Shown piece after piece: positions 5,550 through 62,481 of a DNA stretch of 64,000 nt. The first letter of the stretch is position 1; the number at the start of each line of letters is the position of its first letter. Source of the DNA: Candidatus Blackburnbacteria bacterium (GTDB lineage: Bacteria > Patescibacteriota > Microgenomatia > UBA8517 > UBA10165); the NCBI GenBank assembly GCA_016183565.1, contig JACPEJ010000001.1, positions 358,479 through 422,478 of the forward strand, in the 5' to 3' direction. The position numbers were made by a program, and so were the translations under genes. The notes under the pieces are model-generated. The model had not been told where the DNA came from, did not search any database, and saw only the letters and a list, made by a program, of their open reading frames with translations.

Positions 5550-5563
5550 TTCTTCTTGCTTTA

Positions 5564-21233: not shown

Positions 21234-21257
21234 GCTTGTACAAATAGGGCTTCGTAG

Positions 21258-21290
21258 TACCCTTAGACGTGGTATCATTATATACTAGTT
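21258..21290. promoter_or_regulatory. compact divergent promoter region for the 21233(-) and 21309(+) genes, with overlapping -10 elements
   Basis: The 75-bp intergenic space contains 'CATTATATACT'. This reads TATACT on the + strand (21281-21286) and TATAAT on the - strand (21277-21282). The -35 elements are weak. Confidence 0.3.
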
Positions 21291-27741: not shown

Positions 27742-27802
27742 CAAGTTGCCAAGTTTATTGAAATTAAACTTAATCCAGAAAACTCTTGCCTTAAAAATGT
27801 TA

Positions 27803-27832
27803 TTGACTCACGTTTGTATTACTTTGAATAAT
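27803..27832 (+). promoter_or_regulatory. candidate sigma70-like promoter for the 27845 methyltransferase gene
   Basis: TTGACT(27803-27808), an 18-nt spacer, AATAAT(27827-27832), and 12 nt to the ATG. Confidence 0.3.
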
Positions 27833-32393: not shown

Positions 32394-33239
32394 ATGCAAA
32401 AGGGTCTAGTGTCGGTAATTATTACAACCAAAAACGAGCAAGATGTTATTAGGGATTTGCTTTCGAGTATAAAAGAGCAAAGTTACGAAAAATTCGAAAT
32501 CATTGTGGTTGATAACAATTCTACGGATAAAACGCGGGAGATTGCTAGAAAATATACAAAAAAAGTTTACACAAAAGGGCCGGAGCGTTCAGCGCAGAGG
32601 AATTATGGAGTTGAGAACGCAAGTGGAGAATATGTGCTTATTTTAGATGCAGATCAACAGCTTGCGCCAACGATTCTGCAGGAATGTGTGGATCAGTTTG
32701 AAAAGGACTCTACACTTGGTGCTTTGGTGATACCGGAAAAATCTTTCGGTAAAGGATTCTGGACGCAATTTAAAGTGTTTGAAAGGGAATTTTATGTTGG
32801 CGAGGATGATATAGAAGCTGCACGATTTTTTCAAAAAAGTTTGTTTGATAAATTTGGTGGTTATGACCTTTCGATTACCGGACCCGAGGATTGGGATTTA
32901 CCACTGAGAATGAGGAAGGCAGGTGTAAAAATTGGCCGGATTAAAAGTTTTATTTTGCACAATGAGAGGGTTTTCAACCCCTGGAAATCCGCGAAAAAGA
33001 AGTTTTATTATGCCAAAGGTAGCCGTGAGTACCTGAGAAGGCATCCGGAGAAAGCTTTTACACAGGGTAACCTTCTTTTCAGGAATGTTTTTTTTAGAAA
33101 GTGGAGAAGGCTTGTAGCAAACCCATTTTTAGCGTTAGGTATGTTTAGTATTAGAGCGCTTGAGATGAGCGGTGCTCTGGTAGGTGTAATATATTCTGTC
33201 GTGTGTCCGTTAAGCAAAGTTAAGCATTACATTTTTTGA
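32394..33239 (+). CDS. GT2-family glycosyltransferase
   Basis: 'VSVIITTKNEQDVI', 'EIIVVDNNSTDKTREIA' and 'VLILDADQ'. Only 17 bp separate it from the divergent upstream gene. Confidence 0.65.
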   Translation: MQKGLVSVIITTKNEQDVIRDLLSSIKEQSYEKFEIIVVDNNSTDKTREIARKYTKKVYTKGPERSAQRNYGVENASGEYVLILDADQQLAPTILQECVDQFEKDSTLGALVIPEKSFGKGFWTQFKVFEREFYVGEDDIEAARFFQKSLFDKFGGYDLSITGPEDWDLPLRMRKAGVKIGRIKSFILHNERVFNPWKSAKKKFYYAKGSREYLRRHPEKAFTQGNLLFRNVFFRKWRRLVANPFLALGMFSIRALEMSGALVGVIYSVVCPLSKVKHYIF

Positions 33240-33253
33240 GAAATGGAGAGCGA

Positions 33254-34462
33254 ATGGAGAAAACAGCACTTCAAGATAAACTTAGTTCTATGAATGTAGT
33301 GATCGCGTCTCATGTGTTTGCATCAGGACCTTCTTTAGACTTGGAGGAATATTTAAAAGATAAAGTGAGATACCTTCTTTATATTGGGCACCCTTTTGCT
33401 GAAAGGACTGATGTGCGTTCTTTTTGTAGAGAGTACCGAAAGGGAACTTTGGTGAGGAAACACGAAGCATATCCAGTAAGATTATCGAGTTTTTTTGTTT
33501 ATTTTAAGGAGGCGTTTTATACAATGTTTTGGCTTCTGTTTACTAGGGAAAAAATTGACTTGTATATAGGCTCTGATAATTATATGGCGTATTTGGGTTT
33601 ATTGGCGAAAAAGACTGGAAGGGTTAGGAAGGTGGTTTTATATACGATTGATTTTGTTCCAAAGAGATTTAAAAATCCAGCGTTGAATTGGCTTTATCAT
33701 TTTTTTGATAGAGAATGCTTGAATAAATGCGATATGGTATGGAATGTTTCTTCTGCGATAACTCAAGCGCGAGAGGAGTATTACAGAGGTCTGAGAAGGT
33801 GTGCAAAACAGATTGTAGTGCCTTTAGGGATTTGGCACGACCGTATATCGAAGTTACCTTTTACCAAAAGGAGTGAGAATAAGATAATATTTCTTGGTCA
33901 TTTATTAGAAAAACAGGGATTGTCTTTAGTCATAGAAGCTTTGCCTTTGATAGCAAGAAAGTTGCCGAGTTTGAAACTTGTTATTATTGGTACAGGTCCG
34001 TTTGAGAGGCACCTGAAGTTGTTGGTAGCCAAACTGAGAGTTGGTAGACGTGTTGAGTTTAGAGGATATGTAGAAAATCACCGAGATGTAGAAGAGGAGC
34101 TTTCAGACAGTACGATTGCAGTGGCTATGTATAAGCCAGATCCGGAATCCTTTACTTATTTTGCTGATCCTGCGAAAATTAAAAATTATTTATCTGCTGG
34201 TTTACCGGTGATTCTTACTGATGTCCCGCCAATAGCAGAGGAAATTGCCCAAAAACGCTGTGCGTTGATTGCAAAATATGATGTTTATGATTTTGCTGAT
34301 AAGGTTGATGCTTTGTTAACTGATCGAAGAATGCTTAGCGAGTACAGTAAAAATGCTATAAAATTTGCAGAACAGTTTGATTGGGATAAGGTTTTTACAG
34401 AGGCTTTAGAAAAAACCCTTCAGCAACCTGCTTCATCATTGCTTCTTAAGCAAAAAAATTAA
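33254..34462 (+). CDS. GT4-family glycosyltransferase (member of a three-paralog family with 37640-38824 and 55454-56592)
   Basis: 'LYTIDFVPKRFKNPALNWLYHFFDRECLNKCDMVWNVSSAITQARE' and 'KIIFLGHLLEKQGLSLVIEALPLIARKLPSLKLVIIGTGP'. ATG at 33254 is preceded by GGAGAG; the track starts at TTG 33236. Confidence 0.65.
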   Translation: MEKTALQDKLSSMNVVIASHVFASGPSLDLEEYLKDKVRYLLYIGHPFAERTDVRSFCREYRKGTLVRKHEAYPVRLSSFFVYFKEAFYTMFWLLFTREKIDLYIGSDNYMAYLGLLAKKTGRVRKVVLYTIDFVPKRFKNPALNWLYHFFDRECLNKCDMVWNVSSAITQAREEYYRGLRRCAKQIVVPLGIWHDRISKLPFTKRSENKIIFLGHLLEKQGLSLVIEALPLIARKLPSLKLVIIGTGPFERHLKLLVAKLRVGRRVEFRGYVENHRDVEEELSDSTIAVAMYKPDPESFTYFADPAKIKNYLSAGLPVILTDVPPIAEEIAQKRCALIAKYDVYDFADKVDALLTDRRMLSEYSKNAIKFAEQFDWDKVFTEALEKTLQQPASSLLLKQKN

Positions 34463-37639: not shown

Positions 37640-38824
37640 CTAGCCTAGCAGGCGAGATATATTTTTACTAAAAATAATATTCCAGTCAAATTGTTTTACA
37701 TACTGCAAAGCGTTCTTCCTATATTCTTTCCATAACTTACGGTTAGATAAAAGTTTAATTACAGCATCTGCGAATGATTCGGTACTAAAATTAACGACCA
37801 TGCTACACCTTGCTTTCTGGATTTCTTTGGCAATAGAAGGTGCCTTCGTTGTTATAACTGGTATGCCAAGGGAAAGATACTCCTTAATTTTAGCGGGATC
37901 AGCGTTTTTGGCAGGGGGGTTGTTTTTTGTGCGGTATGGGGCAAGTGCAATTGCTGAATTGGAAATAATATTCAATGCAGTTTTGTTGCTTTCAACAAAT
38001 CCATGAAATTTAATCATTTGATTTACTTGAAGTTTCTGCGCTAGCTGTTTTAGATATTCCAACTGTTCTCCTCCACCAACAATTTCCAGGGTAACGTCAG
38101 GAATGGTTTTTGCAATGATTGGCAGAGCTTTAATTGCCAAATCTACTCCTCGAAAAGCTACAAGGTGTCCAATAAATACGAGTTTTGTTTTTTTTATTCT
38201 ATTCAACGGGATTATATTTCTTTGGTTTAACCATACACCTATTGGAACTGTAAACTGTCTGGAATGACCTGTTTCCGGTATACCGTTTTCTGCTCTAAAC
38301 CTTTTCATAAATGGTGAGACGTTCCAAGTTTCATCACAGTTCGCAACGCATAATTTGTCAAGTTTGTGATATATCCAATTGATAAATGTATTGCTAAACC
38401 TCTCTGGGTACAAATCAATTGTGTAATATATGACCTTATTTACTTTCCCAAGTTTTTTGAGCACCAAGCCCGCTAGAGCATTTAGGTTGTTAATGCCAAA
38501 ATATAAATCGTAAGTATTTCTTGATTTGAGTATCCAATATGTTGTGTAGAGAAAATCTTTAATATAGTGGCCTGACTCAGGAAGTATGACCCGAGGTGCT
38601 TTTGAAGTTTTTACAGGAGAGTTTCCATTGTAATGTTCAACTTCAGAGTGGAGCTTGTAACTTTCTTTAAGCAAAAGAAGTGGATGCTTAATATACAATA
38701 GAGACTTGCAGTTGTGTGTTAGCAGAAACCTTTTTAAGTCATCTCCTGGTATACAAGGCATTATTGATCTGTGTGTAACGATAGCTATATTCTTGCTTCC
38801 CAGGTTTATCTTTGGTCTGCCCAT
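37640..38824 (-). CDS. GT4-family glycosyltransferase (paralog family member)
   Basis: 'YYTIDLYPERFSNTFINWIYHKLDKLCVANCDETWNVSPFM' and 'KLVFIGHLVAFRGVDLAIKALPIIAKTIPDVTLEIVGGG'. There is a 29-bp divergent gap to the 38854 gene. Confidence 0.65.
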   Translation of the reverse strand: MGRPKINLGSKNIAIVTHRSIMPCIPGDDLKRFLLTHNCKSLLYIKHPLLLLKESYKLHSEVEHYNGNSPVKTSKAPRVILPESGHYIKDFLYTTYWILKSRNTYDLYFGINNLNALAGLVLKKLGKVNKVIYYTIDLYPERFSNTFINWIYHKLDKLCVANCDETWNVSPFMKRFRAENGIPETGHSRQFTVPIGVWLNQRNIIPLNRIKKTKLVFIGHLVAFRGVDLAIKALPIIAKTIPDVTLEIVGGGEQLEYLKQLAQKLQVNQMIKFHGFVESNKTALNIISNSAIALAPYRTKNNPPAKNADPAKIKEYLSLGIPVITTKAPSIAKEIQKARCSMVVNFSTESFADAVIKLLSNRKLWKEYRKNALQYVKQFDWNIIFSKNISRLLG

Positions 38825-48293: not shown

Positions 48294-50252
48294 ATGAAAA
48301 TGGAAAAGGGCCTTCTGGCCATAATCGGGATATACACATTATTGATCCTGTTGATGTTGCCCTTAAGGGAGGTGGGCTATCATATGGACTTTGCCTATCA
48401 TCACGCTGTTGGAGATTTCCTTGAATCAGGCATTCTTAAAAACCACACAGCCGTTGTACCAAGTTTCATTTTACAAGAAGTGTGGGGAGCACTATTTAGT
48501 TATTTATTGGGATTTTCATATAAGACTCTTCATATATCAGTTATAGTTTTATTCTTCTTCGGCATAGTAGCCTTTTATAAAGCATTAAGAGAACTCAACT
48601 TAAGTGAGGTTAGGTCAGTAGTTTTTACCACCACATTGTTGGTTTTTCCACATCTTCTACGTTTTATATTCACTTTCATGACCAATATTCCTCATCTTTC
48701 TCTTCAACTGGTTTCTTTGCTTTTTGGAATTTGGGCGATAAAAAGGAACTCTTGGCGTTATGCCTTTAGCTCGAGCGCATTCGGCATGCTTGCGTTTTTA
48801 ATAAGAAATTTTAGTATCGTTTTTCCGATTTCTTTATTTATCGTGTTTGCCATAAAATCGTATTATGATAAAAAGTTTTATTTTAAACATTTACTTGCAA
48901 TTGCTATTCCTGCACTGTTTATTACTTCTGCCTATTATTACTGGCTGATTGTCGGTGACAACATTACCTCAGGGCAATATCACTTCGTATACAACAACCT
49001 AGAAGAAACTAAGCGCCATCTGTTCCCTCCAAATTTACGTGCAGTGGCAACATATTATCATTCATATATTGGCTATTACTACCGTGTTAGTCTTTTTGTT
49101 CTTCTACTCTTCACGATCCTACTACCGCTTGTCATGATGTTTAAAATTCCAAAGCTTGATACCATAAAAAGAAACAAAGGTTTTCTATTACGCACATTCT
49201 TCATAGGCTCTGTACTTTTCGCACTCATCTATATAAAGCTAATTGCAGATCATGGAATAAGACTTGAAGGAGCATACTGGCGAGTTTATCTACCATTAAT
49301 TGGACCAATCTCTTGGGGACATGCCCTCTATCGTTACGTCAGTGACAATATTTACTACGACGTGAACAATTGGGCTAGGGCGATTCTATTATTTTTATCC
49401 TACGCTACACTTCCATTGGCAATTTTTGCAGGAGGGGTAATGATTTATAAAACGCACTTGATGTTTTTCGAGTTTAAGAAAATTAGGAATTTTTTTAACA
49501 ACAAACTATTTATTGGCATTCTTGTGATTGCAGGTTTAATATTTCGAAAACAACTTGTTGAATTACTTTATGTTTATCACGAGTCTGCACGAGACGCTTT
49601 CGGGTTTTGGGTCTTCTGGACTATAATTCTTGCTGTTTTTATACATACGTTTGTATTTCGGCCTAGGAAAAAGTTAATCTCACCAGACGCTTTTTTTACT
49701 TTGTTCTTTTCATTATCTCTCGTTTTTCAATTATTTATGTTAATGATATACGACACTGGGTTAGATTTTGAGTATATGTTTCCGCTATTTCCACTTGCAA
49801 TCCTTATTTTTGCTATCGTCTTTAGAGAAGCGCCTCTCAGTCCCATACGCGCAACCATAATTACAATAGTGCTTGTTGTAATTGGATTACATTGGGCAAG
49901 GAGGGATTATCAAATACCGGGTATTTTTTGGGAAAAGTCTGTGCAAATTATTAATAACGGAATAGTTGAACCAAGAAATGTTGAGCAATTTACTTGGGCA
50001 TGGCTTCCATACTTTTATTATGAAGATGGATACAAGCTAGAATTAGCAAAAAGAGGTGGAGATAGAAAAAAAGTTTTGTTGCACACATGGAGGGAGGTGC
50101 CACATCTTGATCCAGACCTTAACAAACCATTCTTAGTTCATCAAGAGTGCAGGAAAGTTAATTGGTCTGAAGGAGATCCTAAAATTATCGATCGTACTTA
50201 CGAAAGAAGTTTATTTATAAACACGGAATTCTGCCACATAATGAAGAACTAG
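48294..50252 (+). CDS. large polytopic membrane protein of unknown function (GT-C-like candidate)
   Basis: 652 aa with about 14 hydrophobic helices and a C-terminal ~90-aa soluble tail. No recognisable soluble-enzyme motifs. Confidence 0.45.
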   Translation: MKMEKGLLAIIGIYTLLILLMLPLREVGYHMDFAYHHAVGDFLESGILKNHTAVVPSFILQEVWGALFSYLLGFSYKTLHISVIVLFFFGIVAFYKALRELNLSEVRSVVFTTTLLVFPHLLRFIFTFMTNIPHLSLQLVSLLFGIWAIKRNSWRYAFSSSAFGMLAFLIRNFSIVFPISLFIVFAIKSYYDKKFYFKHLLAIAIPALFITSAYYYWLIVGDNITSGQYHFVYNNLEETKRHLFPPNLRAVATYYHSYIGYYYRVSLFVLLLFTILLPLVMMFKIPKLDTIKRNKGFLLRTFFIGSVLFALIYIKLIADHGIRLEGAYWRVYLPLIGPISWGHALYRYVSDNIYYDVNNWARAILLFLSYATLPLAIFAGGVMIYKTHLMFFEFKKIRNFFNNKLFIGILVIAGLIFRKQLVELLYVYHESARDAFGFWVFWTIILAVFIHTFVFRPRKKLISPDAFFTLFFSLSLVFQLFMLMIYDTGLDFEYMFPLFPLAILIFAIVFREAPLSPIRATIITIVLVVIGLHWARRDYQIPGIFWEKSVQIINNGIVEPRNVEQFTWAWLPYFYYEDGYKLELAKRGGDRKKVLLHTWREVPHLDPDLNKPFLVHQECRKVNWSEGDPKIIDRTYERSLFINTEFCHIMKN

Positions 50253-51711: not shown

Positions 51712-52971
51712 ATGTTAGATCTTTCAAGTAAACCTAGTGTTAATGGAGCAAAGCATTGGTGTGAAGAAATAAACCAGCTTTATCATCCGACAGGTGTTTT
51801 TGAACAGGATTCTCAGGACTTGGTTTATTCATTTGGAAATTTAAATTCTACGAAGTTTGTTCCTATTCTTCTTAAGGAGTGGTTTTATCTTCTTAAAAAG
51901 GATGGGTATTTAGTAGTTGATTATCTTCCAAACAAAACATGTAATTTTCAAAAACTGGAAGAACAGATGTGGTGGCTTTGGAAGATGAAGTATAACATTA
52001 TTTACCATGGGTATGTAAGTACAAAGGAACTGAAGAACAAAAAAACTGAAGGACTTATAAATTTTGTGAAGAACGCCCCGAGTCAAGCGAATCCTTCCGA
52101 GGAAGATGGCAGCTACTTTAGGTTTGTCTGCAAAAAGTTGGTGTCAACCAAGATACCAGGAGACGATATAAACAAATGGACGTTTGGTATGATAACCAAA
52201 GGCGAAAGGAATGAATGGATAGAGGAGATTATTCAGGCAATTCACAAACAAAAAGTTCCTCAGTATGAGATTATAGTATGCGGGACTTATCATGGTAGGA
52301 AAGAGAGGAATTTTATATATATTCCTTTTAAAGAAAGAGATGATAAAGGTTGGATTACAAAAAAGAAGAATTTAATTGTAAGACAAGCAAGATATGAGAA
52401 TCTTTGTATTCTGCATGACAGGATAGTCTTAGGAGATGATTGGTTTAAAGGAGTAAAAAAGTATGGCAATTGCTTTGAGCTTATGTGCGTTAAACAAACT
52501 CTTCGTGGTAGCAGCCTAAGAACAGGCGATTGGATTACTTATGGCGGGAGTACGTTAGACATGCCTTACGGGATTTCAAAGTTAGATTACGAGGATTGGG
52601 ACGAATATGTATATGTTGGGGGGATGCTTACAATTCTTAAAAAGCATATCGCTCTTGAGGCTCCTTGGGATGAAACACGTTATTGGGGAGAGTTCGAAGA
52701 TGTTGAATTAACCTTTAGACAAAGGGATTTGGGATTCCTTGCCCGATTTAATCCTTACTCATCTGTCGAGGCGTTGTCATGGAGGTTTGGCGATCTGCCT
52801 TTAAAGTATTACCCCTCAGAGGGTTTTTTGCCGAAAGACATGTTAATGCGTCGCTTAATGCGGCAGTTAAATAAGGCTCTTTTTTCTGTGTCTATCTTAA
52901 AGATGATATTTTTTCCTCTGATTAATCGACTTGTACGGTCTCGGATTTACAACTTTTTGACACAACATTAG
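51712..52971 (+). CDS. two-domain hypothetical protein: a degenerate methyltransferase-like N-terminus plus a GT-A-like C-terminal domain lacking canonical DxD
   Basis: N-terminal 'ILLKEWFYLLKKDGYLVVDY' looks like a methyltransferase post-II region but has no GxG motif I. The middle 'WTFGMITKGERNEWIEEIIQAIHKQKVPQYEIIVCGTYHG' resembles the start of a GT2 domain. Confidence 0.35.
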   Translation: MLDLSSKPSVNGAKHWCEEINQLYHPTGVFEQDSQDLVYSFGNLNSTKFVPILLKEWFYLLKKDGYLVVDYLPNKTCNFQKLEEQMWWLWKMKYNIIYHGYVSTKELKNKKTEGLINFVKNAPSQANPSEEDGSYFRFVCKKLVSTKIPGDDINKWTFGMITKGERNEWIEEIIQAIHKQKVPQYEIIVCGTYHGRKERNFIYIPFKERDDKGWITKKKNLIVRQARYENLCILHDRIVLGDDWFKGVKKYGNCFELMCVKQTLRGSSLRTGDWITYGGSTLDMPYGISKLDYEDWDEYVYVGGMLTILKKHIALEAPWDETRYWGEFEDVELTFRQRDLGFLARFNPYSSVEALSWRFGDLPLKYYPSEGFLPKDMLMRRLMRQLNKALFSVSILKMIFFPLINRLVRSRIYNFLTQH

Positions 52972-53856: not shown

Positions 53857-55428
53857 ATGCTCAAAAAGTTGTCCTCAAATACCTATATTCACATTATTTT
53901 AGTTTTTGCGGTTGCGGTCCTTGCTTTTCTTCCGACACTTAAAATGTACTTTTATATGGATGAATGGGGGAATCTATATGAGTGGACTCATAACTATGAA
54001 TATAAATACTCCGTTTTTCCAGGAGAGGTTTTTCATTTTCTTTTTAAAACTTTTGGTCTTAACGCGACAGGGTATTATGCAACTGGGCTTTTGGTCTATG
54101 CCCTCTCGGTGGTCATTTTCTATCTCTTCGTAAGTCGGTTGTTGAGAAATAAATTGTTGGGGTTTATCGCAGGTTTGGTTTATGCAACCTGTCCTATTGG
54201 GATAAATACTGTACAAATGGTATGGACATATGTAGCAGAAGGTGGCTACCCACTTACAGTTGCACTTCTAACTCTGCTTTATTTAATTGTTGGGTACTTT
54301 CAAGAAAAAAAGATTTACTATTTTATTTTGGCTGCTGTATGTTTTTTGCTTTTCTTAGAATTTGAGCCAAGGCGTGTTTTTCTATTTCTACCGCTGCTGT
54401 TTCTTTTTGATTATTTTTACAATTACAAAAAAATTATTCCTAGCGTTGGATTCTTCCTGCGGCAAGCAACATTTTTCCTTATCTTTGTTGCTTATTACAG
54501 ATACAATGTTACGTTGTCTAACATAATACTTCATAGTGGTGTGGCATTTTGGTCTGGTGCATCGACTTTTGATTGGCAGACTAAAGCAAATTTCAGCAAG
54601 GTGGCGCTCACGAGCCCAGAGCCATTAATAAGCTTAACAAACATTCTTCTTGCGGGACCTTGGATATTCCTAAGCGAACGTCTGAAAGGACATGTCGACC
54701 TTGTGGATATAAAGCAAGTCTACCAGGTTGTAGTTATAACTCTTGCTGCTGTTGTCGCGATAATTGCAATAGCCTTAAAAACTAAAAAACAGTGGGGACT
54801 ACTTTTATTATTCTCGTTGGGATGGATATACGCAAATATTTTAGGTTTTTATATCTTTAGCTCGCCTGGTGTGAATGATGCACCGCATAGATATCTGTCT
54901 CTTGCTGCTCCAGGCTATGCCCTCTTTGTTACGCTTTCCATTACTTCTTTATATGCATTTTTTGTAAGGAGGAATAAAAAAGCCAAGCCAAAACTTAAAA
55001 AGGTGTTTGCAGCTTTATTGTTTGGCATTATAGCAGTAAACTTTTTGGCAACCAAGATCAATTTCGATAAATTTAATGATTTTCATGGAACCCCTGCACG
55101 TGCATTTTATAAAGATTTAAAGAATTTTTACCCGACATTCCCGTCTGATTCTCTTATTTATTTTGAAACACCACCAAGTGCAGCGATTAAGTATAAGTTG
55201 AGCAGAATCTACGGGGGAAATAACTATGGTATTGCTGCAACCATAGCTGTTTTTTATCCTGAGAGGAAGAAGGAAGAACTCCAAGTCGTTCGTGATTATG
55301 TATTGGTCGAAAAATTTATTGGTAATGATTCAACAAAAATTGACCGCGTTTTTGCATTCTACTATGACAAGACTGGCTTGCAAAATAAAACAGAAGAAAC
55401 AAGAGCAAAATTAAGAGAGAAGATTTAA
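53857..55428 (+). CDS. polytopic membrane protein, GT-C-like (first-loop 'YMDEWGN' acidic motif)
   Basis: 523 aa with about 11 TM helices. 'LKMYFYMDEWGNLYEW' comes after TM1. C-terminal ~140-aa soluble domain. Confidence 0.4.
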   Translation: MLKKLSSNTYIHIILVFAVAVLAFLPTLKMYFYMDEWGNLYEWTHNYEYKYSVFPGEVFHFLFKTFGLNATGYYATGLLVYALSVVIFYLFVSRLLRNKLLGFIAGLVYATCPIGINTVQMVWTYVAEGGYPLTVALLTLLYLIVGYFQEKKIYYFILAAVCFLLFLEFEPRRVFLFLPLLFLFDYFYNYKKIIPSVGFFLRQATFFLIFVAYYRYNVTLSNIILHSGVAFWSGASTFDWQTKANFSKVALTSPEPLISLTNILLAGPWIFLSERLKGHVDLVDIKQVYQVVVITLAAVVAIIAIALKTKKQWGLLLLFSLGWIYANILGFYIFSSPGVNDAPHRYLSLAAPGYALFVTLSITSLYAFFVRRNKKAKPKLKKVFAALLFGIIAVNFLATKINFDKFNDFHGTPARAFYKDLKNFYPTFPSDSLIYFETPPSAAIKYKLSRIYGGNNYGIAATIAVFYPERKKEELQVVRDYVLVEKFIGNDSTKIDRVFAFYYDKTGLQNKTEETRAKLREKI

Positions 55429-55453: not shown

Positions 55454-56592
55454 CTACAAACCCATTTTTTTCAAGGCCTGAGAGTAGGTATTTTCCCATG
55501 TGTTGTCTGTTGCTCGTTTTATTGCGTTTTTCCGCATTTTTAAATAGGTTTTCTTGTCTTTTAATAGTTTTAATACAGCTTCAGCTTGCTCTTGGGGATT
55601 ATCTTTTGCAATTACTCCAGCCTCGTCCCTTTCAATCTCTTTTCCCAAGGGCGGTACTTGGGTTGTGATAACCGGTACACCTGCGGCAAGGTAAAGCCTT
55701 ATCTTCGTAGCATCGGCCCACCATCTGGGAGAGCCAGGTACTGCAAGATAAGGTGCAAGTCCGATTGCATACATACTTGTCTCTTTTGAGAGTTTAACTT
55801 GGTTGGATATGAAACCATGAAATATAACTTTATTGTTCAGTTTGAGTTTTTCGGTTAACTTCTTTAATCTTGTCATGTCTGGTTCGCCACTCCCGTAAAT
55901 GTGGAGTGATGTGCTGGGAATAGATTTTAACACTATTTTTAATGCTTTAATTGCAAGGTCAGGTCCGTTTATTTTGCCTAGAGTTCCCACAAAAACTAAA
56001 CTGTTGGGAATTATGCGAGATGTAGGAAGGTAATTTATTTGTTTGGGGAATAATGCATTTGGCACATGGATAACCGGTGTTGCTTTTTGAGGGTCAAGAC
56101 CAACTTTTATTCTTGCGGGCATCATGGCAAGTGAGACGTCCCAAATAAAGTCCGAGTGTGTCGCGGCATACCGATCAAGCCAAAGATAGAGGTCGTTAAA
56201 CCATTTGGGCTTGTATCTTTCTGGTGAATAGTCCGACACGTAATAAACCACTCTCCTAACTTTTCTTAGTTTTCGCAGAACAATACCTGCAAGCGCGTTG
56301 ATGGATTCCAAACCTATGAACAAGTCATATTTTTTACCTTCTAATAAAACGTACTCTAATACGGAAAAAAAATCGCGGATCTTGAAGATAACTGATGTTT
56401 CCGGTGTGTTGATAAATTTTAAAAAAGGATATAGAAGATATGAGGTTATGAAGTTTCGGGATCGTTTAATTAATTTGTTGTGTTGGTAGACCTCGAGAAA
56501 TGGGATAACGGAATCGCTTCCTGGATGTGGCTGCTCAATTAAAACAAATTTTTTGCTTTCGGAGCAAAGAACAAACTGAGAGGTTCTATCAT
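55454..56592 (-). pseudogene. GT4-family glycosyltransferase (paralog of the 33254 and 37640 genes) interrupted by a frameshift in a T6/A6 homopolymer at 56549-56554
   Basis: Tracked ORF 55454-56323 starts at 'MFIGLESINALAG', which aligns to residue ~100 of the paralogs. The same frame stays open upstream for ~90 more codons ('...KKFVLIEQPHPGSDSVIPFLEVY...VLEYVLLEGKKYDLFIGLES') with no ATG/GTG/TTG. The only ATG (56592) is in the +1 frame ('MIEPLSLFFAPKAKNLF*'). Adding one A to the A6 run would fuse the two frames into a ~379-aa protein. Confidence 0.5.
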
Positions 56593-56663
56593 GCCGTTGG
56601 TGGCTGTCCTCTCACTATTTGTTCGTACTGAGAAAGTTGCGAAGAGTATTGAACTTATTTTTT

Positions 56664-56691
56664 TTGCCATTTAAACTTCAAAGAGTATACT
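56664..56691 (+). promoter_or_regulatory. strong candidate sigma70-like promoter for the giant membrane-protein gene
   Basis: TTGCCA(56664-56669), a 16-nt spacer, TATACT(56686-56691), with an upstream T8 tract. ATG 56703 lies 11 nt downstream, so the mRNA is leaderless or has a very short leader. Confidence 0.45.
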
Positions 56692-56702
56692 TCAAGTATA
56701 TT

Positions 56703-59700
56703 ATGTGGTTCAAGTCAAAAGACAGGTTTTTACTGATTGGGATTTTATATGTTCTTGTGGTTCTTGTGGCATTATTTATCTTGACACTTACGTGGTTACC
56801 TCCGGGTTACACCCTGGCGGGACACGATTCGGGTTTGCCACTTGACGCAAAGGAATTCTTACGAACGCGTCTTTATGCTTGGGATGATCGCTTGGGTTTT
56901 GGCTTAGACAATTCTGTTAACCTTGGAAGCTTAACGATCCATTTTTTTGACTGGCTTTCAGCTATCATTGCTGGGGTACCGTATTCGGGTAACTACATCT
57001 CCGTCTTTTTTTGGTTAAGTTTAATTTTTGTATCAGCATTCTTCTTTGCATATCAATTAAAAGATATTTTTGGAAAAACTTTCATTTTTATCTTGCCGCC
57101 TCTTGCAACATTTAACTTTTATATTTTTCAGTCAGTTTTTATGCTTGAGAGAGGCAAGTTTGGAGTTTTCTCAGCAATGCTTATTCTCCTGACGGTGTAT
57201 TTTAGAGTGCAGAGTAGGAAAATGCGTGTTTTTTCGGCAGCTCTAATCTCATCGGTGGTATTCTCGATATTTAACGGCGGAGGACTATTTGGAATTACAT
57301 TATTTGGCGGAGTAGTTCTTGTGTTGGGACTGATGTTTCTTTCCTCGTTGTTTGCTGCGATAAAAGAGGATCAGTACAAGGATTTTAAGAGAATCATTTC
57401 CTTTTTGCTTCTAACAATTGCCCTCTACGTCGCATTTAATGCGTATTCGCTTCTCCCTTTTTTTGCTCATTATATCAAAGACGATCCAACCGCTATTTTC
57501 AAAGAATCACTTGCCAGAGTCAATCAAGAATGGCTTGAGTATGTGAGTCGGTCTGCGTCATATTTAAATTTATTTAGATTTTATGGTGTTCCGGATTGGT
57601 ACGGAGGATGGGAGGTATTAGACAAAGCAGATCCTTCTCACCCATACGCTTCTTTTTATCTTAACAACAAAGCCCTGGTCTTTATCAGTTTCCTTTTTCC
57701 TGTGTTTTCTTTCTCCAGTTTGCTATTGGCAAGACGCGGATTGCAGAGAAGAATTCTGGCCACTTTTGGAATGATTGCACTTTTGGGTATTTTCTTGGCT
57801 GCTGGTTCCCATAGGCCATTAGGATTCATCTACGAATTTTTGATGGAAAAATTGCCAGGTTTTGTGCTGTTTCGCTCAGCTTTCTACAAATTTGGAATTT
57901 TTTATCTGTTCGGCATGCTTGTTATGCTTGCTTTTACGATCAGTTTTTTGCTCGAGAGGCTCTCGGGTTTTCTACCCCCAAGGTTGGCTAAGGTTTCACT
58001 TGTGGTAGGTGTCTTTTTGTTTCTGGGACTGTGGTTTGGCTACCATTGGGTGTTGTTTGATGGTGCCAAGGTTTTTGCTTGGAAGACCGATCAAGCGACA
58101 AAGGTTCATGTGCCTTCTTATGTCTATGATTTTTCAAGTTGGGTGGAAGGGAGTGACTTGGGTGAGAGGAGGATGCTTCTACTACCTCCTGTCAATAAAG
58201 ATTGGGAGGCCGATGCGTATAAATGGGGATATTGGAGTCTTTCGCCCTTACCGTATGCCTTAAGTTCCGTAAGTATTTTATCAAATTGGCATGCGCTGAC
58301 AAATGATGAGAGAGCTTTGGTTAATAATCTTTATAGCGCAGTAAGAGGAATGGATGAGGTTAGATTTTTAACATTAGTAGAAAAGCTTAATATTGGGTAT
58401 TTTCTAGTAAGACACGATGTGCTGGTTGATTCTAGCTGGTCTGCCGTCGAGCGGCCGGAGAACTATCAGAAAGCATTGGAGTCATTCACGAGTGTGGATA
58501 AAATTAAGAGCTTTGGAGAGTGGGACGTATACAAGCTTGTACTAGATAATGATACTGGAGTTTATGCAACCAGAGTGCTTAATATCGCTCCAGACAAATA
58601 TGTATCTTTGGCTAATGATTTTTTCGGACAAGGGCATTCAATTGATCTGTCTGCAACAAAGTTATACAAAGACATTGATTACATAGCTTCTAACAAGATG
58701 GAGGTTTATGACTGTTTATCCTGTCGCCTGGAACGAAAAGCAAGTTTACAGAGCCTTCCTGAGGTGAGTTTGCTTCCAAGCTCGATATTTTACCCCCTTA
58801 AAGAGAGGCAAGAAGAAGAGCTTTTGTCACAGTCTAAGGACCCTGGAAGTAAGTTGGCGGATTATCTTGGTTTGGTTTTGAGGAGAACTGCTGAGCAAAA
58901 AAGGATGATTGATATGGATGTGAAAGAAAAATATTTGATGCAAAATGCGAAAGTCATAAGGGGCTACTTGGACAAAGTTTACTCACAATTAGAATCTTCG
59001 CCGGAGATTTTCCAAGACTTTGAGACCGCAAGTCTATTTCGGGACTTCTTAGGCCCTGTTGAGCGTGTGCTTAACGATGATGTTAAAAGTAGTGCATTTA
59101 AAGCCTCTGACCGTAACTTTATTGATGAAACACTTGGTATTCTTTGGAGTATAAACAGGATTAACGATTTTTTTGCGCCTTTTTTAACAAATCCTGAAAG
59201 GTGGTCGAACCGGAAGGTTTATAAAATAGATCTGCCTGGGGATGGGGAATATAACTTGTTCTTTCCTGTATCCTCTTTCCCTCAACATAAGAATGGAGAG
59301 ACCATCCTTCCCAAATCTGTGGAGTTGAAAAAAAATAATTGGAAAAAGACATTAAAAGTTGAAGAGGAAAAAGATGGTTGGCTTAGAGCTCCTGTTGATT
59401 ATGAAATTAGAGGACAAGCGGAGCTTCTCTTGAATTTTGAAGAATTACCGAATTTGTTGACTATCGATAGTTCAGGGTTGGAGGAGTTTTCCTCTGGTAA
59501 GGCAGCATGTTTCCGGGGTAATATAGCAAACTTTGACAGGAAGCGAGTATACGAGATTAGGGTATGGAGGACCGATAGACTTAGGCCAGCAAGAGCTATT
59601 TTTAAAGATAGGTCTTTTGTTTATTCTGAAAAACATGGGTTTTTGCAAGGCGAAGATAGTTTTGAAATACCGGTGATCGCTGGTGGAGGGTTTGCTAGGT

Positions 59701-60197
59701 ATGTCTTCTTCCCTTCGGTTTCAGCAAATATCATCTCTTTGTATGTTTGTAGTGATAATGTAGATCTTCCGCAGATTGACAAAATTGAGGTTATAGAATC
59801 TTTTGCACCGCCGATTATTGGAGTGACTGGTTTTAATCTGCCTGCTAATTCACTTGTAAATGTTGACTATGTTCGCGCTAATCCTACAGGATACGAAGCT
59901 GAGGTGGGTGATGTACAGGTCCCGTATGTTTTAGTTTTGAACCAAAAGTTTAATCCCTCTTGGAGCTTGTCTGTTAAAAACAGGGATGGTAGTTCTACTC
60001 CACTTAAGGAGCATTTCAAAGTGGATGGTTATGCTAATGGTTGGCTTGTTAACCAGCCGGGTGCTAAGAAGTTCCAAATTGAATATACGCCGCAATCTGT
60101 GCTTCGTGCTTCTAGTATCTTTTCACTAATATCAGTGTTCGTTGGTATCTCTTGGCTTGTTGTTTTGCTGATTAGGAGCAAAAAGAATGGGAATTAG
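56703..60197 (+). CDS. giant (~1160 aa) membrane protein: N-terminal polytopic GT-C-like domain, long extracytoplasmic beta-rich region, C-terminal TM anchor (AftD/DUF3367-like architecture)
   Basis: 'LPPGYTLAGHDSGLPLDAKEFLRTRLYAWDDRLGFG' follows TM1. There are about 12 TM helices in the first 450 aa. A ~700-aa hydrophilic region is followed by the terminal 'IFSLISVFVGISWLVVLLI' TM helix. The first ATG is 56703; the track starts at TTG 56619. Confidence 0.5.
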   Translation: MWFKSKDRFLLIGILYVLVVLVALFILTLTWLPPGYTLAGHDSGLPLDAKEFLRTRLYAWDDRLGFGLDNSVNLGSLTIHFFDWLSAIIAGVPYSGNYISVFFWLSLIFVSAFFFAYQLKDIFGKTFIFILPPLATFNFYIFQSVFMLERGKFGVFSAMLILLTVYFRVQSRKMRVFSAALISSVVFSIFNGGGLFGITLFGGVVLVLGLMFLSSLFAAIKEDQYKDFKRIISFLLLTIALYVAFNAYSLLPFFAHYIKDDPTAIFKESLARVNQEWLEYVSRSASYLNLFRFYGVPDWYGGWEVLDKADPSHPYASFYLNNKALVFISFLFPVFSFSSLLLARRGLQRRILATFGMIALLGIFLAAGSHRPLGFIYEFLMEKLPGFVLFRSAFYKFGIFYLFGMLVMLAFTISFLLERLSGFLPPRLAKVSLVVGVFLFLGLWFGYHWVLFDGAKVFAWKTDQATKVHVPSYVYDFSSWVEGSDLGERRMLLLPPVNKDWEADAYKWGYWSLSPLPYALSSVSILSNWHALTNDERALVNNLYSAVRGMDEVRFLTLVEKLNIGYFLVRHDVLVDSSWSAVERPENYQKALESFTSVDKIKSFGEWDVYKLVLDNDTGVYATRVLNIAPDKYVSLANDFFGQGHSIDLSATKLYKDIDYIASNKMEVYDCLSCRLERKASLQSLPEVSLLPSSIFYPLKERQEEELLSQSKDPGSKLADYLGLVLRRTAEQKRMIDMDVKEKYLMQNAKVIRGYLDKVYSQLESSPEIFQDFETASLFRDFLGPVERVLNDDVKSSAFKASDRNFIDETLGILWSINRINDFFAPFLTNPERWSNRKVYKIDLPGDGEYNLFFPVSSFPQHKNGETILPKSVELKKNNWKKTLKVEEEKDGWLRAPVDYEIRGQAELLLNFEELPNLLTIDSSGLEEFSSGKAACFRGNIANFDRKRVYEIRVWRTDRLRPARAIFKDRSFVYSEKHGFLQGEDSFEIPVIAGGGFARYVFFPSVSANIISLYVCSDNVDLPQIDKIEVIESFAPPIIGVTGFNLPANSLVNVDYVRANPTGYEAEVGDVQVPYVLVLNQKFNPSWSLSVKNRDGSSTPLKEHFKVDGYANGWLVNQPGAKKFQIEYTPQSVLRASSIFSLISVFVGISWLVVLLIRSKKNGN

Positions 60198-60552
60198 AAA
60201 ATTCACTTTTGCAGATATAGAGAGGGTAGAAAAAACTCTTTTCCAATGGATTCTTCCAAAAAGGTATAGACTGGTACTTTTACTTTTTGTTATTTCTATG
60301 TTGACTGCCGCAGGGTTTGCCCCCTATTTTAATTTAATTCTAAATTTTTACATAATTGTGCTCGTTTCTCTTGTTCTTACACCCATTATTTTAAATGTGG
60401 ACTCTAAAATATTTTTTGTGGTAGGCATAGTGTGTTTTTTTCTTGCAGCACTTCTGTGGTTTATGGGTCAGACTGAAGAGGCAGAAGTTTTGACTGAATA
60501 TATTTTTATCATTCTACTGTCTGGTTCTTTTAAAGCTTTTCTGTCGTCTTGA
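60187..60552 (+). CDS. small 3-TM membrane protein of unknown function
   Basis: 121 aa with three hydrophobic helices. Its start overlaps the upstream stop. Its 3' end overlaps the convergent gene by 39 nt, so it could be spurious. Confidence 0.3.
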   Translation: MGIRKFTFADIERVEKTLFQWILPKRYRLVLLLFVISMLTAAGFAPYFNLILNFYIIVLVSLVLTPIILNVDSKIFFVVGIVCFFLAALLWFMGQTEEAEVLTEYIFIILLSGSFKAFLSS

Positions 60553-62481
60553 TATCCAAAGAGAATATGAAAGTATTGTAAGAAGCGTAAAAATACTGAT
60601 AGTTCTACCTAGTTGATAACTCTCAGGGTAATAATACAGTTCGACGGACTGTATTTCGTTTCCGAATGTAACTTTTATTAATTTGTTAGTTGTTTCAACT
60701 ACTCTGATTTTTTTGCCATCATTTGTTTTTGCTTTCCATCCAGGGCTCCAGGTTTCAGCAAGAACCATTTCTTTCGCTTTGTGTTTTGATGTGTCAATAA
60801 TGATTTTGTTAGGTGAGTAATACAGAATCGGGGCTTCGATTTCTGATTTATTGCCTTTAGCAACGAAATATGCTCTAGATTTGAATAGTGTATTCTCGAA
60901 AACAAAAAATTTATCGAACTGTTTGACTAACTTGAAATCTATTCCAGTGAGCTTGTGTGGGCTGATAACGTACTTAACATTATGGTCTGCAAGTATTGAG
61001 GCAATAGGTTGTATCTCGCGGAAGTTATATATAGAAGGAGGGGGAAGCATTGACGTATATTTATCCCAAAAAACTTGCGATAGTTGAATGAACTGATTGT
61101 AATAATTTTTTTGGTAAATCGTGCCATAACCTTCGATCGTCTCGAGATTGTACTTTGCTACATCTTGTTGGGACAAACAACGGTTGACACAAAAAACACG
61201 GAAACGTTCTGGATCCTTTTTGAGGAATTCATATAGGGCAACTGGAACTTTTTCTCTTTGGTGGGGTATTGGTCTTTCAAGTCGTATCCACGAAAGTATA
61301 AGCAATTCGCCTATCGTTAGTGCAGCGAGTACTCCCGCAAGTCTTTTTAGTTTTTTCTTTTGAAGAGTCTCAAAACCAGAACCGGCAAGGAAGACTAAGC
61401 TCAAGATTACGATGAACCAGTTTCTTGTTGATACACGGCTTAAGACATACCAATCAGATGACAACAACAAAGGTTGGATTGGCGAAACGTTGTTGAGACT
61501 GATAAGAAATATCCCAGAAACAAAAAGGATTAGTAAAATTTTGAATTTGTTTTGGAGTTTTAAGAATCCGATTAAGGCAAGAATAGATATAAAAAATCCG
61601 ATGGCGATCCATTTTTCGGAGTCGAGATCGTTAATTAAATTTTTTCCACCAAAAACGTGAGGGTATATTGCTTTTATAAACTCAGTTTTTCCATTCCATT
61701 TAGGATATACATCGCGGTCTTGGAGCAATATAAATCGAGTAGTTTGGGGTAGCCATTCTAATTGCGGGAAGAGTGTTATTGCAGTAAGGCCAATAGTAAT
61801 GGCGATACCAAAACCCAGAAATATTAAGGTTTTCAGGGAACGATTCTTGGAAAAAAAATAACTTCCTCCGACAAATAAGACTGTTGATGCGGCCGCTGTG
61901 ACAAAAGTTGTTGCAAACGTAAAAAAAAGTCCCGATAGACTGATTGCTAAAAGTATAGACCATTTAAAATTCGGAAATTTAATTAATTTTATGGCAGCAA
62001 GTAAGAGGTATGGCATCCATGCCGTTGTCGCTACAAATGGAAAATGGCCTGTTTCTAGAAAACCTGCGGTTCTAGGGAAAGTAATGTAAAATATGGCGGT
62101 AAAAATACTGGATGTTTTTGAAAAACGTAACCCCTTTTTGGCTACTAGATAAGTGCCTAAACCTCCAAAAAAGGTGTGAAGTATGAACGATGCGATGAAC
62201 GCATAGTCAATTGGCAAGACAAGAAAAATAATATTTGGAAGATAAAACAAGAATGATCCTGGATCGGAAATGAGTGGTGTGCCTGAAAAAAACATATTGT
62301 TCCATAAGGGTAGTGTATGATTTTGAAGAAGAGATTCTTTTGTAAAGTAGAAAATTGGCCAGTAGAATTCCTGAAGGTCATTTCCGCGATTTAGAATGAT
62401 TGCTGGATTTAGGATCGCTGGTAAGTATAATAGTAAAGTTATAGCTAAAATTACTAATAGACAGGTTGTATTTTGTCTCAT
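60514..62481 (-). CDS. YfhO-family-like GT-C membrane glycosyltransferase
   Basis: 'NRGNDLQEFYWPIFYFTKESLLQNHTLPLWNNMFFSGTPLISDP' is the YfhO N-terminal D..Q..P...G.lP.W...G.P signature. About 13 TM helices, then a C-terminal extracytoplasmic domain and a final TM. ATG 62481 is preferred; the alternative ATG 62565 would overlap the divergent gene's start. Confidence 0.5.
   Translation of the reverse strand: MRQNTTCLLVILAITLLLYLPAILNPAIILNRGNDLQEFYWPIFYFTKESLLQNHTLPLWNNMFFSGTPLISDPGSFLFYLPNIIFLVLPIDYAFIASFILHTFFGGLGTYLVAKKGLRFSKTSSIFTAIFYITFPRTAGFLETGHFPFVATTAWMPYLLLAAIKLIKFPNFKWSILLAISLSGLFFTFATTFVTAAASTVLFVGGSYFFSKNRSLKTLIFLGFGIAITIGLTAITLFPQLEWLPQTTRFILLQDRDVYPKWNGKTEFIKAIYPHVFGGKNLINDLDSEKWIAIGFFISILALIGFLKLQNKFKILLILFVSGIFLISLNNVSPIQPLLLSSDWYVLSRVSTRNWFIVILSLVFLAGSGFETLQKKKLKRLAGVLAALTIGELLILSWIRLERPIPHQREKVPVALYEFLKKDPERFRVFCVNRCLSQQDVAKYNLETIEGYGTIYQKNYYNQFIQLSQVFWDKYTSMLPPPSIYNFREIQPIASILADHNVKYVISPHKLTGIDFKLVKQFDKFFVFENTLFKSRAYFVAKGNKSEIEAPILYYSPNKIIIDTSKHKAKEMVLAETWSPGWKAKTNDGKKIRVVETTNKLIKVTFGNEIQSVELYYYPESYQLGRTISIFTLLTILSYSLWISRRQKSFKRTRQ

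What the first reader, a model, noticed from the sequence alone, without database searches (positions are those of the whole stretch)
55454..56592. GT4 paralog disrupted by a +/-1 frameshift at a T6/A6 homopolymer: phase-variable switch, pseudogene or sequencing error
Tracked ORF 55454-56323 lacks its N-terminal ~100 residues compared with its two paralogs. Its frame stays open a further ~270 nt upstream without any ATG, GTG or TTG, and it still encodes paralog-like sequence ('KKFVLIEQPHPGSD..', '..KKYDLFIGLES'). The only ATG (56592, minus strand) is in the +1 frame and stops right after the A6 run (plus-strand T6 at 56549-56554). One extra A would restore a ~379-aa protein, 'MIEPLSLFFAPKAKKFVLIEQ...'. 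Homopolymer slippage is a classic phase-variation mechanism for surface-glycan glycosyltransferases, but an assembly or sequencing indel explains it equally well.
Basis: seen in the sequence. Interest (0 to 1): 0.6.

Follow-up and report, generated by a model that had tools for sequence, protein, structure and literature searches.

The report
One-base frameshift in a glycosyltransferase gene
One copy of a conserved sugar-transferase gene in this uncultured groundwater bacterium has lost a single A from an ordinary run of seven, while five other assemblies of the same population carry the intact gene, so it is an ordinary private lesion or assembly error and not a dedicated on/off switch.

Summary
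The frameshift is real in this sequence. A minus-strand GT4 glycosyltransferase gene (56670 to 55454) is broken at an A6 run (plus-strand T6, 56549-56554). Adding one A restores a 405-aa protein.

That exact 405-aa protein is encoded with A7 on contigs from five independent assemblies of Illumina runs. These appear to come from the same groundwater project. Those contigs are otherwise almost identical to the window. This is the only indel in about 61.7 kb compared.

The tract is unremarkable:
- It is one of about 80 A/T runs of 7 or more in the window, which matches chance expectation.
- It is shorter than tracts accepted as phase-variable (poly-A/T of 10 or more).
- It is not conserved in orthologues, and nearly all of the 61 related loci carry uninterrupted genes.

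The A6 allele is private to this deposited MAG, a Candidatus Blackburnbacteria genome. The MAG also carries a private nonsense change and a private Gly>Trp change elsewhere in the window.

Most likely this is a recent, unselected one-base slippage deletion. I put a real strain-level null allele at about 0.5 and a consensus error at about 0.35. An evolved phase-variable switch is unlikely, at 0.1 or less. Only the reads can settle real versus artefact. The finding is ordinary and of low interest.

The parts
55454..56670 (-). Whole GT4 (Glycos_transf_1) glycosyltransferase gene, broken by a 1-nt deletion. With one A restored it encodes 405 aa.
   Evidence: tblastn of the repaired protein places residues 1-40 at 56670-56551 and residues 35-405 at 56569-55457. 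Pfam PF00534 scores 79.4 bits against a cut-off of 26.4. The repaired protein is identical to P0001 at 100% identity and 100% coverage.
56549..56554 (-). A6 run on the coding strand (T6 on the plus strand). It is A7 in all five other assemblies and covers the codons for Lys40-Lys41.
   Evidence: Direct reading. Base-by-base comparison with L001-L005 shows GCAAAAAAATTTG there against GCAAAAAA-TTTG in the window.
56539..56670 (-). N-terminal fragment ORF: ATG at 56670, 43 codons, stop TAA at 56541-56539.
   Evidence: Three-frame translation. Homologues begin at the same position and have invariant residues in this stretch.
55454..56323 (-). Mechanical 289-aa ORF (TTG start), the C-terminal 71% of the protein. 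NCBI deposits a 285-aa version, MBI2268241.1.
   Evidence: ORF list. P0030 is 285 aa, 100% identical over 70% of the query, and named 'MAG: glycosyltransferase [Candidatus Blackburnbacteria bacterium]'.
56324..56548 (-). Start-less stretch of the downstream reading frame, from the codon after the A run up to the TTG of the 289-aa ORF. It encodes the conserved residues 42-116, including the invariant H-P-G motif. The same frame stays open a further 21 codons upstream, to 56611, but that part is out-of-frame sequence.
   Evidence: Translation. Conservation in a 34-sequence alignment.
37640..38824 (-). Intact paralogue, 394 aa, 37% identical.
   Evidence: Identical in the Logan contig.
33236..34462 (+). 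Intact paralogue, 30% identical. The mechanical ORF is 408 aa. The Logan gene call is 402 aa, starting at 33254.
56703..60197 (+). Divergent neighbour gene, 1164 aa with no Pfam match. Only 32 bp separate the two start codons, so the GT gene is a single-gene unit and the frameshift has no polar effect on other genes.
   Evidence: Logan gene call L001 6474-9968 mapped to the window. No Pfam hit.

Best explanation
The locus is one ordinary protein-coding gene. It encodes a conserved 405-aa GT-B/GT4-type glycosyltransferase inside a large cell-surface glycosylation island of a Candidatus Blackburnbacteria (Microgenomates/Patescibacteria) genome.

The population's normal allele has an A7 run (AAA-AAA-T, Lys40-Lys41-Phe42). 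In the genome sampled here one A is missing. Translation from ATG 56670 therefore stops after 43 codons. The remaining 365 codons have no usable start before TTG 56323, and any product from there would lack the conserved N-terminal 116 residues. The allele is therefore a null.

The lesion is most likely a recent, unselected replication-slippage deletion carried by the particular strain that dominated the sample from which this MAG was assembled. It is a plain strain-level loss-of-function allele, not a dedicated switch.

Shown: the break, its repair, the intact A7 allele in five other assemblies, that the tract is unremarkable, and that the tract is not conserved.

Inferred: that A6 is a true allele and not a consensus error, and that the truncated product is inactive.
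For: - **Repair and intact allele.** The repaired protein is 100% identical over 100% of its length to P0001. P0001 is encoded on 5 Logan contigs from runs SRR12113420, -430, -424, -384 and -383.
- **Only indel.** Those contigs match the window at 99.96-99.98%, and the A7/A6 difference is the only indel. With L006-L015, 61.7 kb of the window is covered and no other indel exists.
- **A distinct strain.** The MAG differs from the Logan contigs at two SNP clusters that are mostly synonymous: 24834/24840, both synonymous, and 62148/54/55, two synonymous plus Ala>Thr. The window therefore represents a genuinely different strain. This makes a strain-specific allele plausible.
- **Sequencing method.** One run of the same series, SRR12113421, is tied to PRJNA640378. 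By inference the five runs come from that project. Its data are Illumina 150-bp paired-end reads, assembled per filter with MEGAHIT (PMC7906910).
- **Contig length.** The source contig is 686 kb. From general knowledge, an assembler adopting a 1-nt homopolymer error at A7 is uncommon at the coverage such a contig needs.
- **Purifying selection on the family.** The gene family has 793 homologues. Nearly all of 61 related loci are uninterrupted: three are cut by a contig end and one has an in-frame stop. Residues before the break are invariant.
Against: - **A6 is seen nowhere else.** No Logan gene product corresponds to the A6 allele: neither the 43-aa fragment nor the 285-aa fragment is on record. 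P0030 has an NCBI source only.
- **The MAG-specific haplotype is also unseen.** Its 655-, 575- and 689-aa products are all absent from the Logan collection. The MAG's alleles therefore have no independent confirmation.
- **The private single-site changes look unselected.** All three of the MAG's private single-site changes in 61.7 kb damage a protein: this frameshift, GGA>TGA at 27739 and Gly>Trp at 5343. There is no private synonymous singleton. This is what noise looks like.
- **Possible damage signature.** The two substitutions are G>T, the direction of oxidative-damage artefacts in Illumina libraries (general knowledge).
- Reads could not be inspected.
Confidence: 0.5

Rival explanations
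1. Consensus or assembly artefact. The organism's gene is intact (A7), and the deposited MAG sequence lost one A during sequencing, assembly, scaffolding or curation.
For: - All 5 independent assemblies that cover the site have A7.
- A6 and every other MAG-specific protein-changing allele are absent from the Logan collection.
- The MAG's private single-site changes are all damaging, and two are G>T. This pattern matches unselected noise.
- The gene is otherwise identical to the intact allele.
- Short Logan contigs also carry private non-synonymous G<->T singletons (L012 at 3328 and 3338, L013 at 3884). The data set may therefore be prone to such changes.
Against: - The project data are Illumina, not long reads.
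- The source contig is 686 kb, which implies good coverage. A k-mer assembler rarely prefers an erroneous path at such coverage (general knowledge).
- None of the other roughly 80 A/T runs of 7 or more differs, including 17 of length 8-9 in the compared part of the window. These longer runs should be more error-prone.
- The MAG is a genuinely different strain at two mostly synonymous SNP clusters.
Confidence: 0.35
2. Evolved phase-variable (contingency) locus. The A tract is a hypermutable switch that turns a surface-glycan glycosyltransferase on (A7) and off (A6) at high, reversible frequency.
For: - Two tract lengths exist within one very closely related population, and they differ by exactly the ON/OFF step.
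- The gene is a glycosyltransferase in a surface-glycosylation island. This is the class of gene that is often phase-variable in host-associated bacteria (general knowledge).
- The gene is a stand-alone transcription unit near its own start codon.
Against: - The A7 tract is below accepted cut-offs (poly-A/T of 10 or more).
- Such tracts occur at chance frequency (82 observed against 86 +/- 10 expected), and longer ones are depleted (18 against 34 +/- 6).
- In the compared part of the window, none of the other roughly 80 tracts of 7 or more varies. This includes two 8-base runs in this same gene.
- The site is K-R, K-K or another sequence in orthologues. An A run of 7 or more is present in only 9 of 59 loci, and in one of the six closest.
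- Only one of the 61 loci shows an internal disruption, an in-frame stop in L060.
- The OFF allele is seen once, in an assembly that also differs in SNP haplotype. That points to a lineage marker, not rapid switching.
Confidence: 0.08
3. The A6 allele is still expressed, either by -1 ribosomal frameshifting on the in-frame heptamer A_AAA_AAT or by transcriptional slippage on the A run. This would give a near-normal protein (Lys41 becoming Asn, or an unchanged sequence).
For: The deletion creates a textbook X_XXY_YYZ heptamer in the zero frame: A-AAA-AAT at 56555-56549. A -1 shift there enters the correct downstream frame.
Against: - There is no stimulatory structure downstream. The minimum free energy is -11.7 kcal/mol against -10.7 +/- 2.7 for shuffles, z = -0.37.
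- The arrangement is not conserved. All conspecific assemblies and nearly all related loci have one uninterrupted frame.
- The heptamer is a by-product of deleting one A from A7T.
- Six A's are too few for efficient RNA-polymerase slippage (general knowledge).
Confidence: 0.04
4. Established pseudogene. The gene is dispensable because of its two paralogues and is decaying.
For: Two paralogues in the same island could be redundant.
Against: - There is no second lesion. The 1217-nt gene is identical to the intact allele apart from the one missing A.
- The paralogues are only 30-37% identical, while orthologues at 60-82% identity are conserved across many genomes. Each paralogue is therefore probably a distinct enzyme.
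Confidence: 0.03

Closest known systems
Homopolymer frameshift alleles or assembly indels in metagenome-assembled genomes (ordinary slipped-strand 1-nt deletions)
   Same: A single-base contraction of a short A/T run splits a conserved gene in two. The intact allele is present in sister assemblies of the same population.
   Different: Nothing distinctive. The only unusual point is that the same MAG also carries a private nonsense codon in another glycosylation gene in the window.
SSR-mediated phase-variable glycosyltransferases (Campylobacter jejuni LOS/capsule poly-G genes; Haemophilus and Neisseria LOS genes such as lgtA, lgtC and lic2A)
   Same: The gene is a surface-glycan glycosyltransferase, the repeat lies in the 5' coding region, and the two alleles differ by one repeat unit that sets the frame ON or OFF.
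   Different: - Known loci use tracts long enough to be hypermutable (poly-G/C of 7-8 or more, poly-A/T of 10 or more, or tetranucleotide arrays).
- Such tracts are over-represented and conserved at the locus, and they vary within single cultures.
- Here the tract is A7, occurs at chance frequency, is not conserved, and varies in one assembly only.
CAZy GT4 / Pfam Glycos_transf_1 (PF00534) GT-B glycosyltransferases, e.g. WbnH (PDB 4xyw), MshA (3c48, 3c4q) and SdgA/SdgB
   Same: The C-terminal domain matches PF00534 and PF13692 well above threshold. There is weak profile similarity to WbnH, MshA and the SdgA/B class.
   Different: - No NCBIfam equivalog comes near its cut-off. The best is MshA at 41.5 bits against 462.5.
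- The family is a Patescibacteria-rich clade with its own invariant motifs (HPG; YYVSDYSP; RWWADATK).
- The donor and acceptor substrates are unknown.
Programmed -1 ribosomal frameshifting (dnaX A_AAA_AAG type)
   Same: An in-frame A_AAA_AAT heptamer lies exactly at the break, and a -1 shift there restores the frame.
   Different: There is no downstream stimulator and no conservation. The heptamer exists only because one A was lost from A7.

Membership tests
SSR-mediated phase-variable (contingency) locus | Repeat tract long enough to be hypermutable (poly-A/T of 10 or more, poly-G/C of 7 or more in PhasomeIt) | tested here: not met
   The tract is A7 in the intact allele and A6 in the window. 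Cut-offs are quoted from PMC6321876.
SSR-mediated phase-variable (contingency) locus | Tract length varies among closely related genomes independently of strain background | tested here: inconclusive
   The split is 5 assemblies with A7 against 1 with A6. The A6 assembly also differs at SNP clusters 62148-62155 and 24834/24840. The variant could therefore be a lineage marker. Only two lengths were seen.
SSR-mediated phase-variable (contingency) locus | Tract conserved at the locus in related species, or long tracts over-represented in the genome | tested here: not met
   An A run of 7 or more sits at the homologous site in 9 of 59 loci, and in one of the six closest. The window has 82 runs of 7 or more against 86 +/- 10 expected, and 18 runs of 8 or more against 34 +/- 6 expected.
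SSR-mediated phase-variable (contingency) locus | Mixed tract lengths among reads or cells of a single population | not testable with these tools
   No read-level data are available. This needs mapping of the PRJNA640378 reads.
GT4 / Glycos_transf_1 glycosyltransferase (GT-B fold) | Significant match to PF00534/PF13692 above the gathering score | tested here: met
   PF00534 scores 79.4 bits (cut-off 26.4) and PF13692 scores 64.2 bits (cut-off 27).
GT4 / Glycos_transf_1 glycosyltransferase (GT-B fold) | Complete two-domain protein (N-terminal acceptor domain plus C-terminal nucleotide-sugar domain) in one reading frame | tested here: not met
   This is met only after one A is restored. In that case the protein aligns full-length with paralogues and 33 homologues. 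As it stands in the window, the protein is split 43 aa + 289 aa.
GT4 / Glycos_transf_1 glycosyltransferase (GT-B fold) | Catalytic E-x7-E motif of retaining GT4 enzymes | not tested
   By eye, the family has invariant RWWADATK...RLY where the motif would lie. No structure-based alignment was made.
Programmed -1 ribosomal frameshift site | Slippery heptamer X_XXY_YYZ in the zero frame | tested here: met
   A_AAA_AAT lies at 56555-56549 in the frame of ATG 56670.
Programmed -1 ribosomal frameshift site | Downstream stimulatory RNA structure, and conservation of the two-frame arrangement | tested here: not met
   The fold z-score is -0.37. Relatives have a single frame.
Decaying pseudogene | Multiple independent inactivating lesions or relaxed constraint | tested here: not met
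   The single missing A is the only difference from the intact allele across the gene.

The most novel reading that the evidence does not exclude
The A7/A6 difference is genuine, reversible ON/OFF switching of a surface-glycan glycosyltransferase in an episymbiotic Patescibacteria (CPR) bacterium. That would require a lineage with weak mismatch repair, in which even 7-base A runs slip often enough to diversify the cell surface, for example against phage or for host attachment. The private nonsense codon in a neighbouring PMT_2 glycosyltransferase (27739) would then be a second sign of ongoing surface-glycan remodelling in this strain.
Probability: 0.07. Interest if true: 0.55.

Novelty: already known. 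Interest (0 to 1): 0.1.

Why it matters
It matters little. In practice, the deposited annotation of this gene (285-aa 'glycosyltransferase', MBI2268241.1) describes a truncated product. The population's real gene is a 405-aa protein starting at ATG 56670. Metabolic or glycosylation inventories of this MAG should count the gene as present in the species.

The case also shows that a homopolymer frameshift in a glycosyltransferase is not evidence of phase variation by itself. If reads showed within-sample A6/A7 mixtures, this would be an early hint of contingency-type variation in CPR bacteria. Nothing here points that way.

Tried and rejected
1. **Exact-pattern scans across the tract** (T6-T8 allowed) found nothing in GTDB species representatives or in JGI metagenome contigs. 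This gave no extra alleles and no confirmation of the source record.
2. **Look-ups of products specific to the window's alleles** were all 'not on record': the 285-aa P0030, the 43-aa N-terminal fragment, the 655-aa protein carrying the 62148-55 haplotype, the 575-aa Trp variant and the 689-aa truncated PMT_2. I could therefore find no independent assembly of the MAG's haplotype, and could not test whether A6 travels with it.
3. **A look-up with a mechanical ORF** (35149-36312) failed, probably because the called start differs.
4. **Looking for the MAG haplotype through the synonymous SNP pair.** I used the unchanged 409-aa GT4 protein as the query. It returned only the SRR12113420-type contigs.
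5. **Supplement search of He et al. 2021** for the SRR numbers or a 37-40% GC Blackburnbacteria bin found nothing, because the stored tables are cut. The link between the runs and the project rests (SRR12113421 used from PRJNA640378). The link between the MAG and that project rests on my recollection of the accession and locus-tag series, and on the similar record names seen.
6. **-1 frameshifting** was considered because of the A_AAA_AAT heptamer. I rejected it for lack of a downstream structure and lack of conservation.
7. **Old pseudogene** was rejected because there is no second lesion.
8. **General homopolymer-error-prone assembly** (long-read type) was rejected. This is the only indel in 61.7 kb, and the project used Illumina.

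Full report
**1. What is in the sequence**

- On the minus strand an ATG at 56670 opens a frame reading MAKKISSILFATFSVRTNSERTATNGMIEPLSLFFAPKAKNLF*. Its stop is at 56541-56539.
- The last Lys-Asn codons lie in an A6 run, which is T6 on the plus strand at 56549-56554.
- A second frame, shifted by one base, is open from 56611 down to the stop at 55454. From the A run onward it encodes '..FVLIEQPHPGSD...'.
- The first ATG, GTG or TTG in that second frame is TTG 56323. This gives the mechanical 289-aa ORF, and 96 start-less codons lie upstream of it.
- Inserting one A into the run joins the two frames into a 405-codon gene.
Its statement that ATG 56592 is the only ATG is wrong, because that ATG is Met27 of the real protein. 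The restored protein is 405 aa, not about 379.

**2. The repaired protein is real**

- It matches Pfam Glycos_transf_1 (79.4 bits) and Glyco_trans_1_4.
- It aligns from Met1 to the C-terminus with the two paralogues in the window, 37640-38824 (-) at 37% identity and 33236-34462 (+) at 30%.
- A search of the large protein collection gave 793 homologues, most about 405 aa long and from Microgenomates/Patescibacteria.
- In a 34-sequence alignment the residues before the break are invariant (T12, F13, R21, N25, G26, M27, E29, P30). So is the H-P-G motif just after it.
- The 289-aa remnant lacks 116 conserved residues, so I infer the window's allele is a null.
- No NCBIfam equivalog comes near its cut-off. 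The nearest solved structures (WbnH, MshA, SdgA/B-like) are only distant. The enzyme's substrates are therefore unknown.

**3. Related sequences**

- The top hit, P0001, is 100% identical over 100% of the repaired protein. It is encoded on five contigs from independent Logan assemblies of runs SRR12113420, -430, -424, -384 and -383.
- Base-by-base comparison shows all five carry GCAAAAAAATTTG (A7), where the window has A6.
- Over 18.5 kb the only other difference is a cluster of three SNPs at 62148, 62154 and 62155.
- Further contigs (L006-L015) extend the comparison to window 2280-64000. The A7/A6 site is the only indel in 61.7 kb.
- The window's own truncated product is P0030, also MBI2268241.1, 'MAG: glycosyltransferase [Candidatus Blackburnbacteria bacterium]', from a 686,250-bp contig.
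- One run of this series, SRR12113421, comes from BioProject PRJNA640378. By inference the five runs do too. That project is the groundwater study of He et al. 2021, which used Illumina 150-bp paired-end reads, MEGAHIT per filter and IDBA-UD scaffolding (PMC7906910).
- That the MAG itself belongs to this project is my inference from its accession series and from the record names seen.

**4. Is the tract special?** It is not.

- The window has 82 A/T runs of 7 or more, against a first-order Markov expectation of 86 +/- 10.
- It has 18 runs of 8 or more against 34 +/- 6 expected, so long runs are depleted and not enriched.
- The gene itself contains two 8-base runs and a 7-base run that are identical in all assemblies.
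- Accepted cut-offs for candidate phase-variable poly-A/T tracts are 10 or more (PMC6321876).
- In 59 related loci from GTDB genomes that cover the site, it reads K-R, K-K, E-R and other sequences. An A run of 7 or more is present in only 9 of them, and in one of the six closest relatives.
- Of the 61 loci, 57 match as one uninterrupted stretch. One (L060) has an in-frame stop and three are cut by a contig end.
- There is therefore no sign of selection for mutability at this site, and no recurrent switching-off in relatives.

**5. What kind of difference is it?** The differences between the window and the other assemblies fall into two classes.

- *Clustered differences.* These are 24834/24840 (both synonymous) and 62148/54/55 (two synonymous plus Ala>Thr). 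They look like older, selected strain polymorphism. They show that the MAG is a slightly different strain from the one in the Logan contigs.
- *Isolated differences private to one assembly.* For the window these are 5343 (GGG>TGG, Gly>Trp), 27739 (GGA>TGA, which cuts 30 codons off a 719-aa PMT_2 protein) and the missing A. L012 has private changes at 3328 and 3338, and L013 at 3884.
- All five isolated substitutions are G<->T transversions, and all are non-synonymous. This class looks unselected. It is either very recent mutation or noise.
- The frameshift belongs to this second class.

**6. Real allele or artefact?**

- *For a real allele:*
  - The project data are Illumina.
  - The contig is 686 kb, which implies solid coverage.
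  - In the compared part of the window, no other homopolymer differs, including 17 runs of 8-9 bases that should be more error-prone.
  - The MAG is a genuinely distinct strain.
- *For an artefact:*
  - A6 is seen in none of five independent assemblies.
  - None of the MAG-specific protein variants could be found elsewhere.
  - Every private single-site change in the MAG is damaging.
- I put a real, non-programmed null allele at about 0.5 and an artefact at about 0.35. The reads would settle it in minutes.

**7. Other rivals**

- *Dedicated phase-variable switch (about 0.08).* It fails three of the four defining features I could test. The only supporting fact is that two tract lengths exist.
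- *Leaky expression by -1 frameshifting (about 0.04).* The A_AAA_AAT heptamer created by the deletion makes this formally possible. However, there is no downstream structure (z = -0.37) and the arrangement is not conserved.
- *Old pseudogene (about 0.03).* This is excluded by the absence of any second lesion.

**8. Context**

- The gene sits alone on the minus strand. It is convergent with a 523-aa gene (53857-55428) and divergent from a 1164-aa gene (56703-60197).
- Neither neighbour has a Pfam match. Only 32 bp separate the divergent start codons.
- The whole window is a glycosylation island. It holds many PMT/PMT_2 membrane glycosyltransferases, GT2 and GT4 enzymes, methyltransferases, flippases and sugar-nucleotide enzymes.

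**9. Verdict**

- It is not novel, and I score interest at 0.1.

Noticed in passing
window 27739 (gene 25672-27831, +): The window has T where the SRR12113420 contig has G. GGA becomes TGA, so a 719-aa PMT_2 membrane glycosyltransferase ends 30 codons early (689 aa). This is a second potentially disabling change in a glycosylation gene that is private to this MAG.
   Followed up: partly
window 5343 (gene 3822-5549, +): A private G>T change (GGG>TGG, Gly>Trp) in a 575-aa PMT_2 protein. Two Logan contigs from different runs both have G.
   Followed up: partly
window 3328, 3338, 3884, 5343, 27739 versus 24834/24840 and 62148/62154/62155: All five isolated single-site differences between assemblies are G<->T transversions on the plus strand, and all are non-synonymous. 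The clustered differences are mostly synonymous transitions. This suggests two sources of variation: old strain SNPs, and either oxidative-damage-type artefacts or a real G>T mutational bias with weak selection.
   Followed up: partly
window 2201-12277 and throughout: Six tandem paralogous PMT/PMT_2 (GT-C type) membrane glycosyltransferases of about 520-575 aa, with at least four more elsewhere in the window (19116-21278, 25672-27831, 42268-43899, 48294-50252). Alongside them are many GT2 and GT4 enzymes, at least 8 SAM methyltransferases, flippases and sugar-activating enzymes. This is an unusually large glycosylation island for a genome whose main contig is 686 kb.
   Followed up: no
whole window: A/T homopolymers of 8 or more are about half as frequent as a first-order Markov model predicts (18 against 34 +/- 6). 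Runs of 7 or more are at expectation. This is consistent with selection against slippage-prone tracts.
   Followed up: partly
window 56671-56702: Only 32 bp separate the divergent start codons of the GT gene (56670, -) and a 1164-aa protein with no Pfam match (56703, +). Both promoters must therefore overlap the neighbouring coding sequence.
   Followed up: no
L017, L022, L024, L028-L030, L046, L056 and others: GTDB records holding 45-72% identical orthologues of this Patescibacteria-type gene are titled 'uncultured Gammaproteobacteria bacterium', 'Nanoarchaeota archaeon', 'Deltaproteobacteria' or 'Eisenbacteria'. These are probably mislabelled bins.
   Followed up: no
residues 316-336 of the repaired protein (window about 55663-55725, -): The family has an invariant RWWADATK..RLY..G.P..T segment where GT4 enzymes usually carry the catalytic E-x7-E motif. 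It also has its own invariant motifs (HPG, YYVSDYSP). It may be a distinct GT-B subfamily. This was judged by eye only.
   Followed up: no
window 53857-55428 (+), 56703-60197 (+), 60514-62481 (-), 51712-52971 (+): Several large ORFs flanking the GT gene (523, 1164, 655 and 419 aa) have no Pfam match at all.
   Followed up: no
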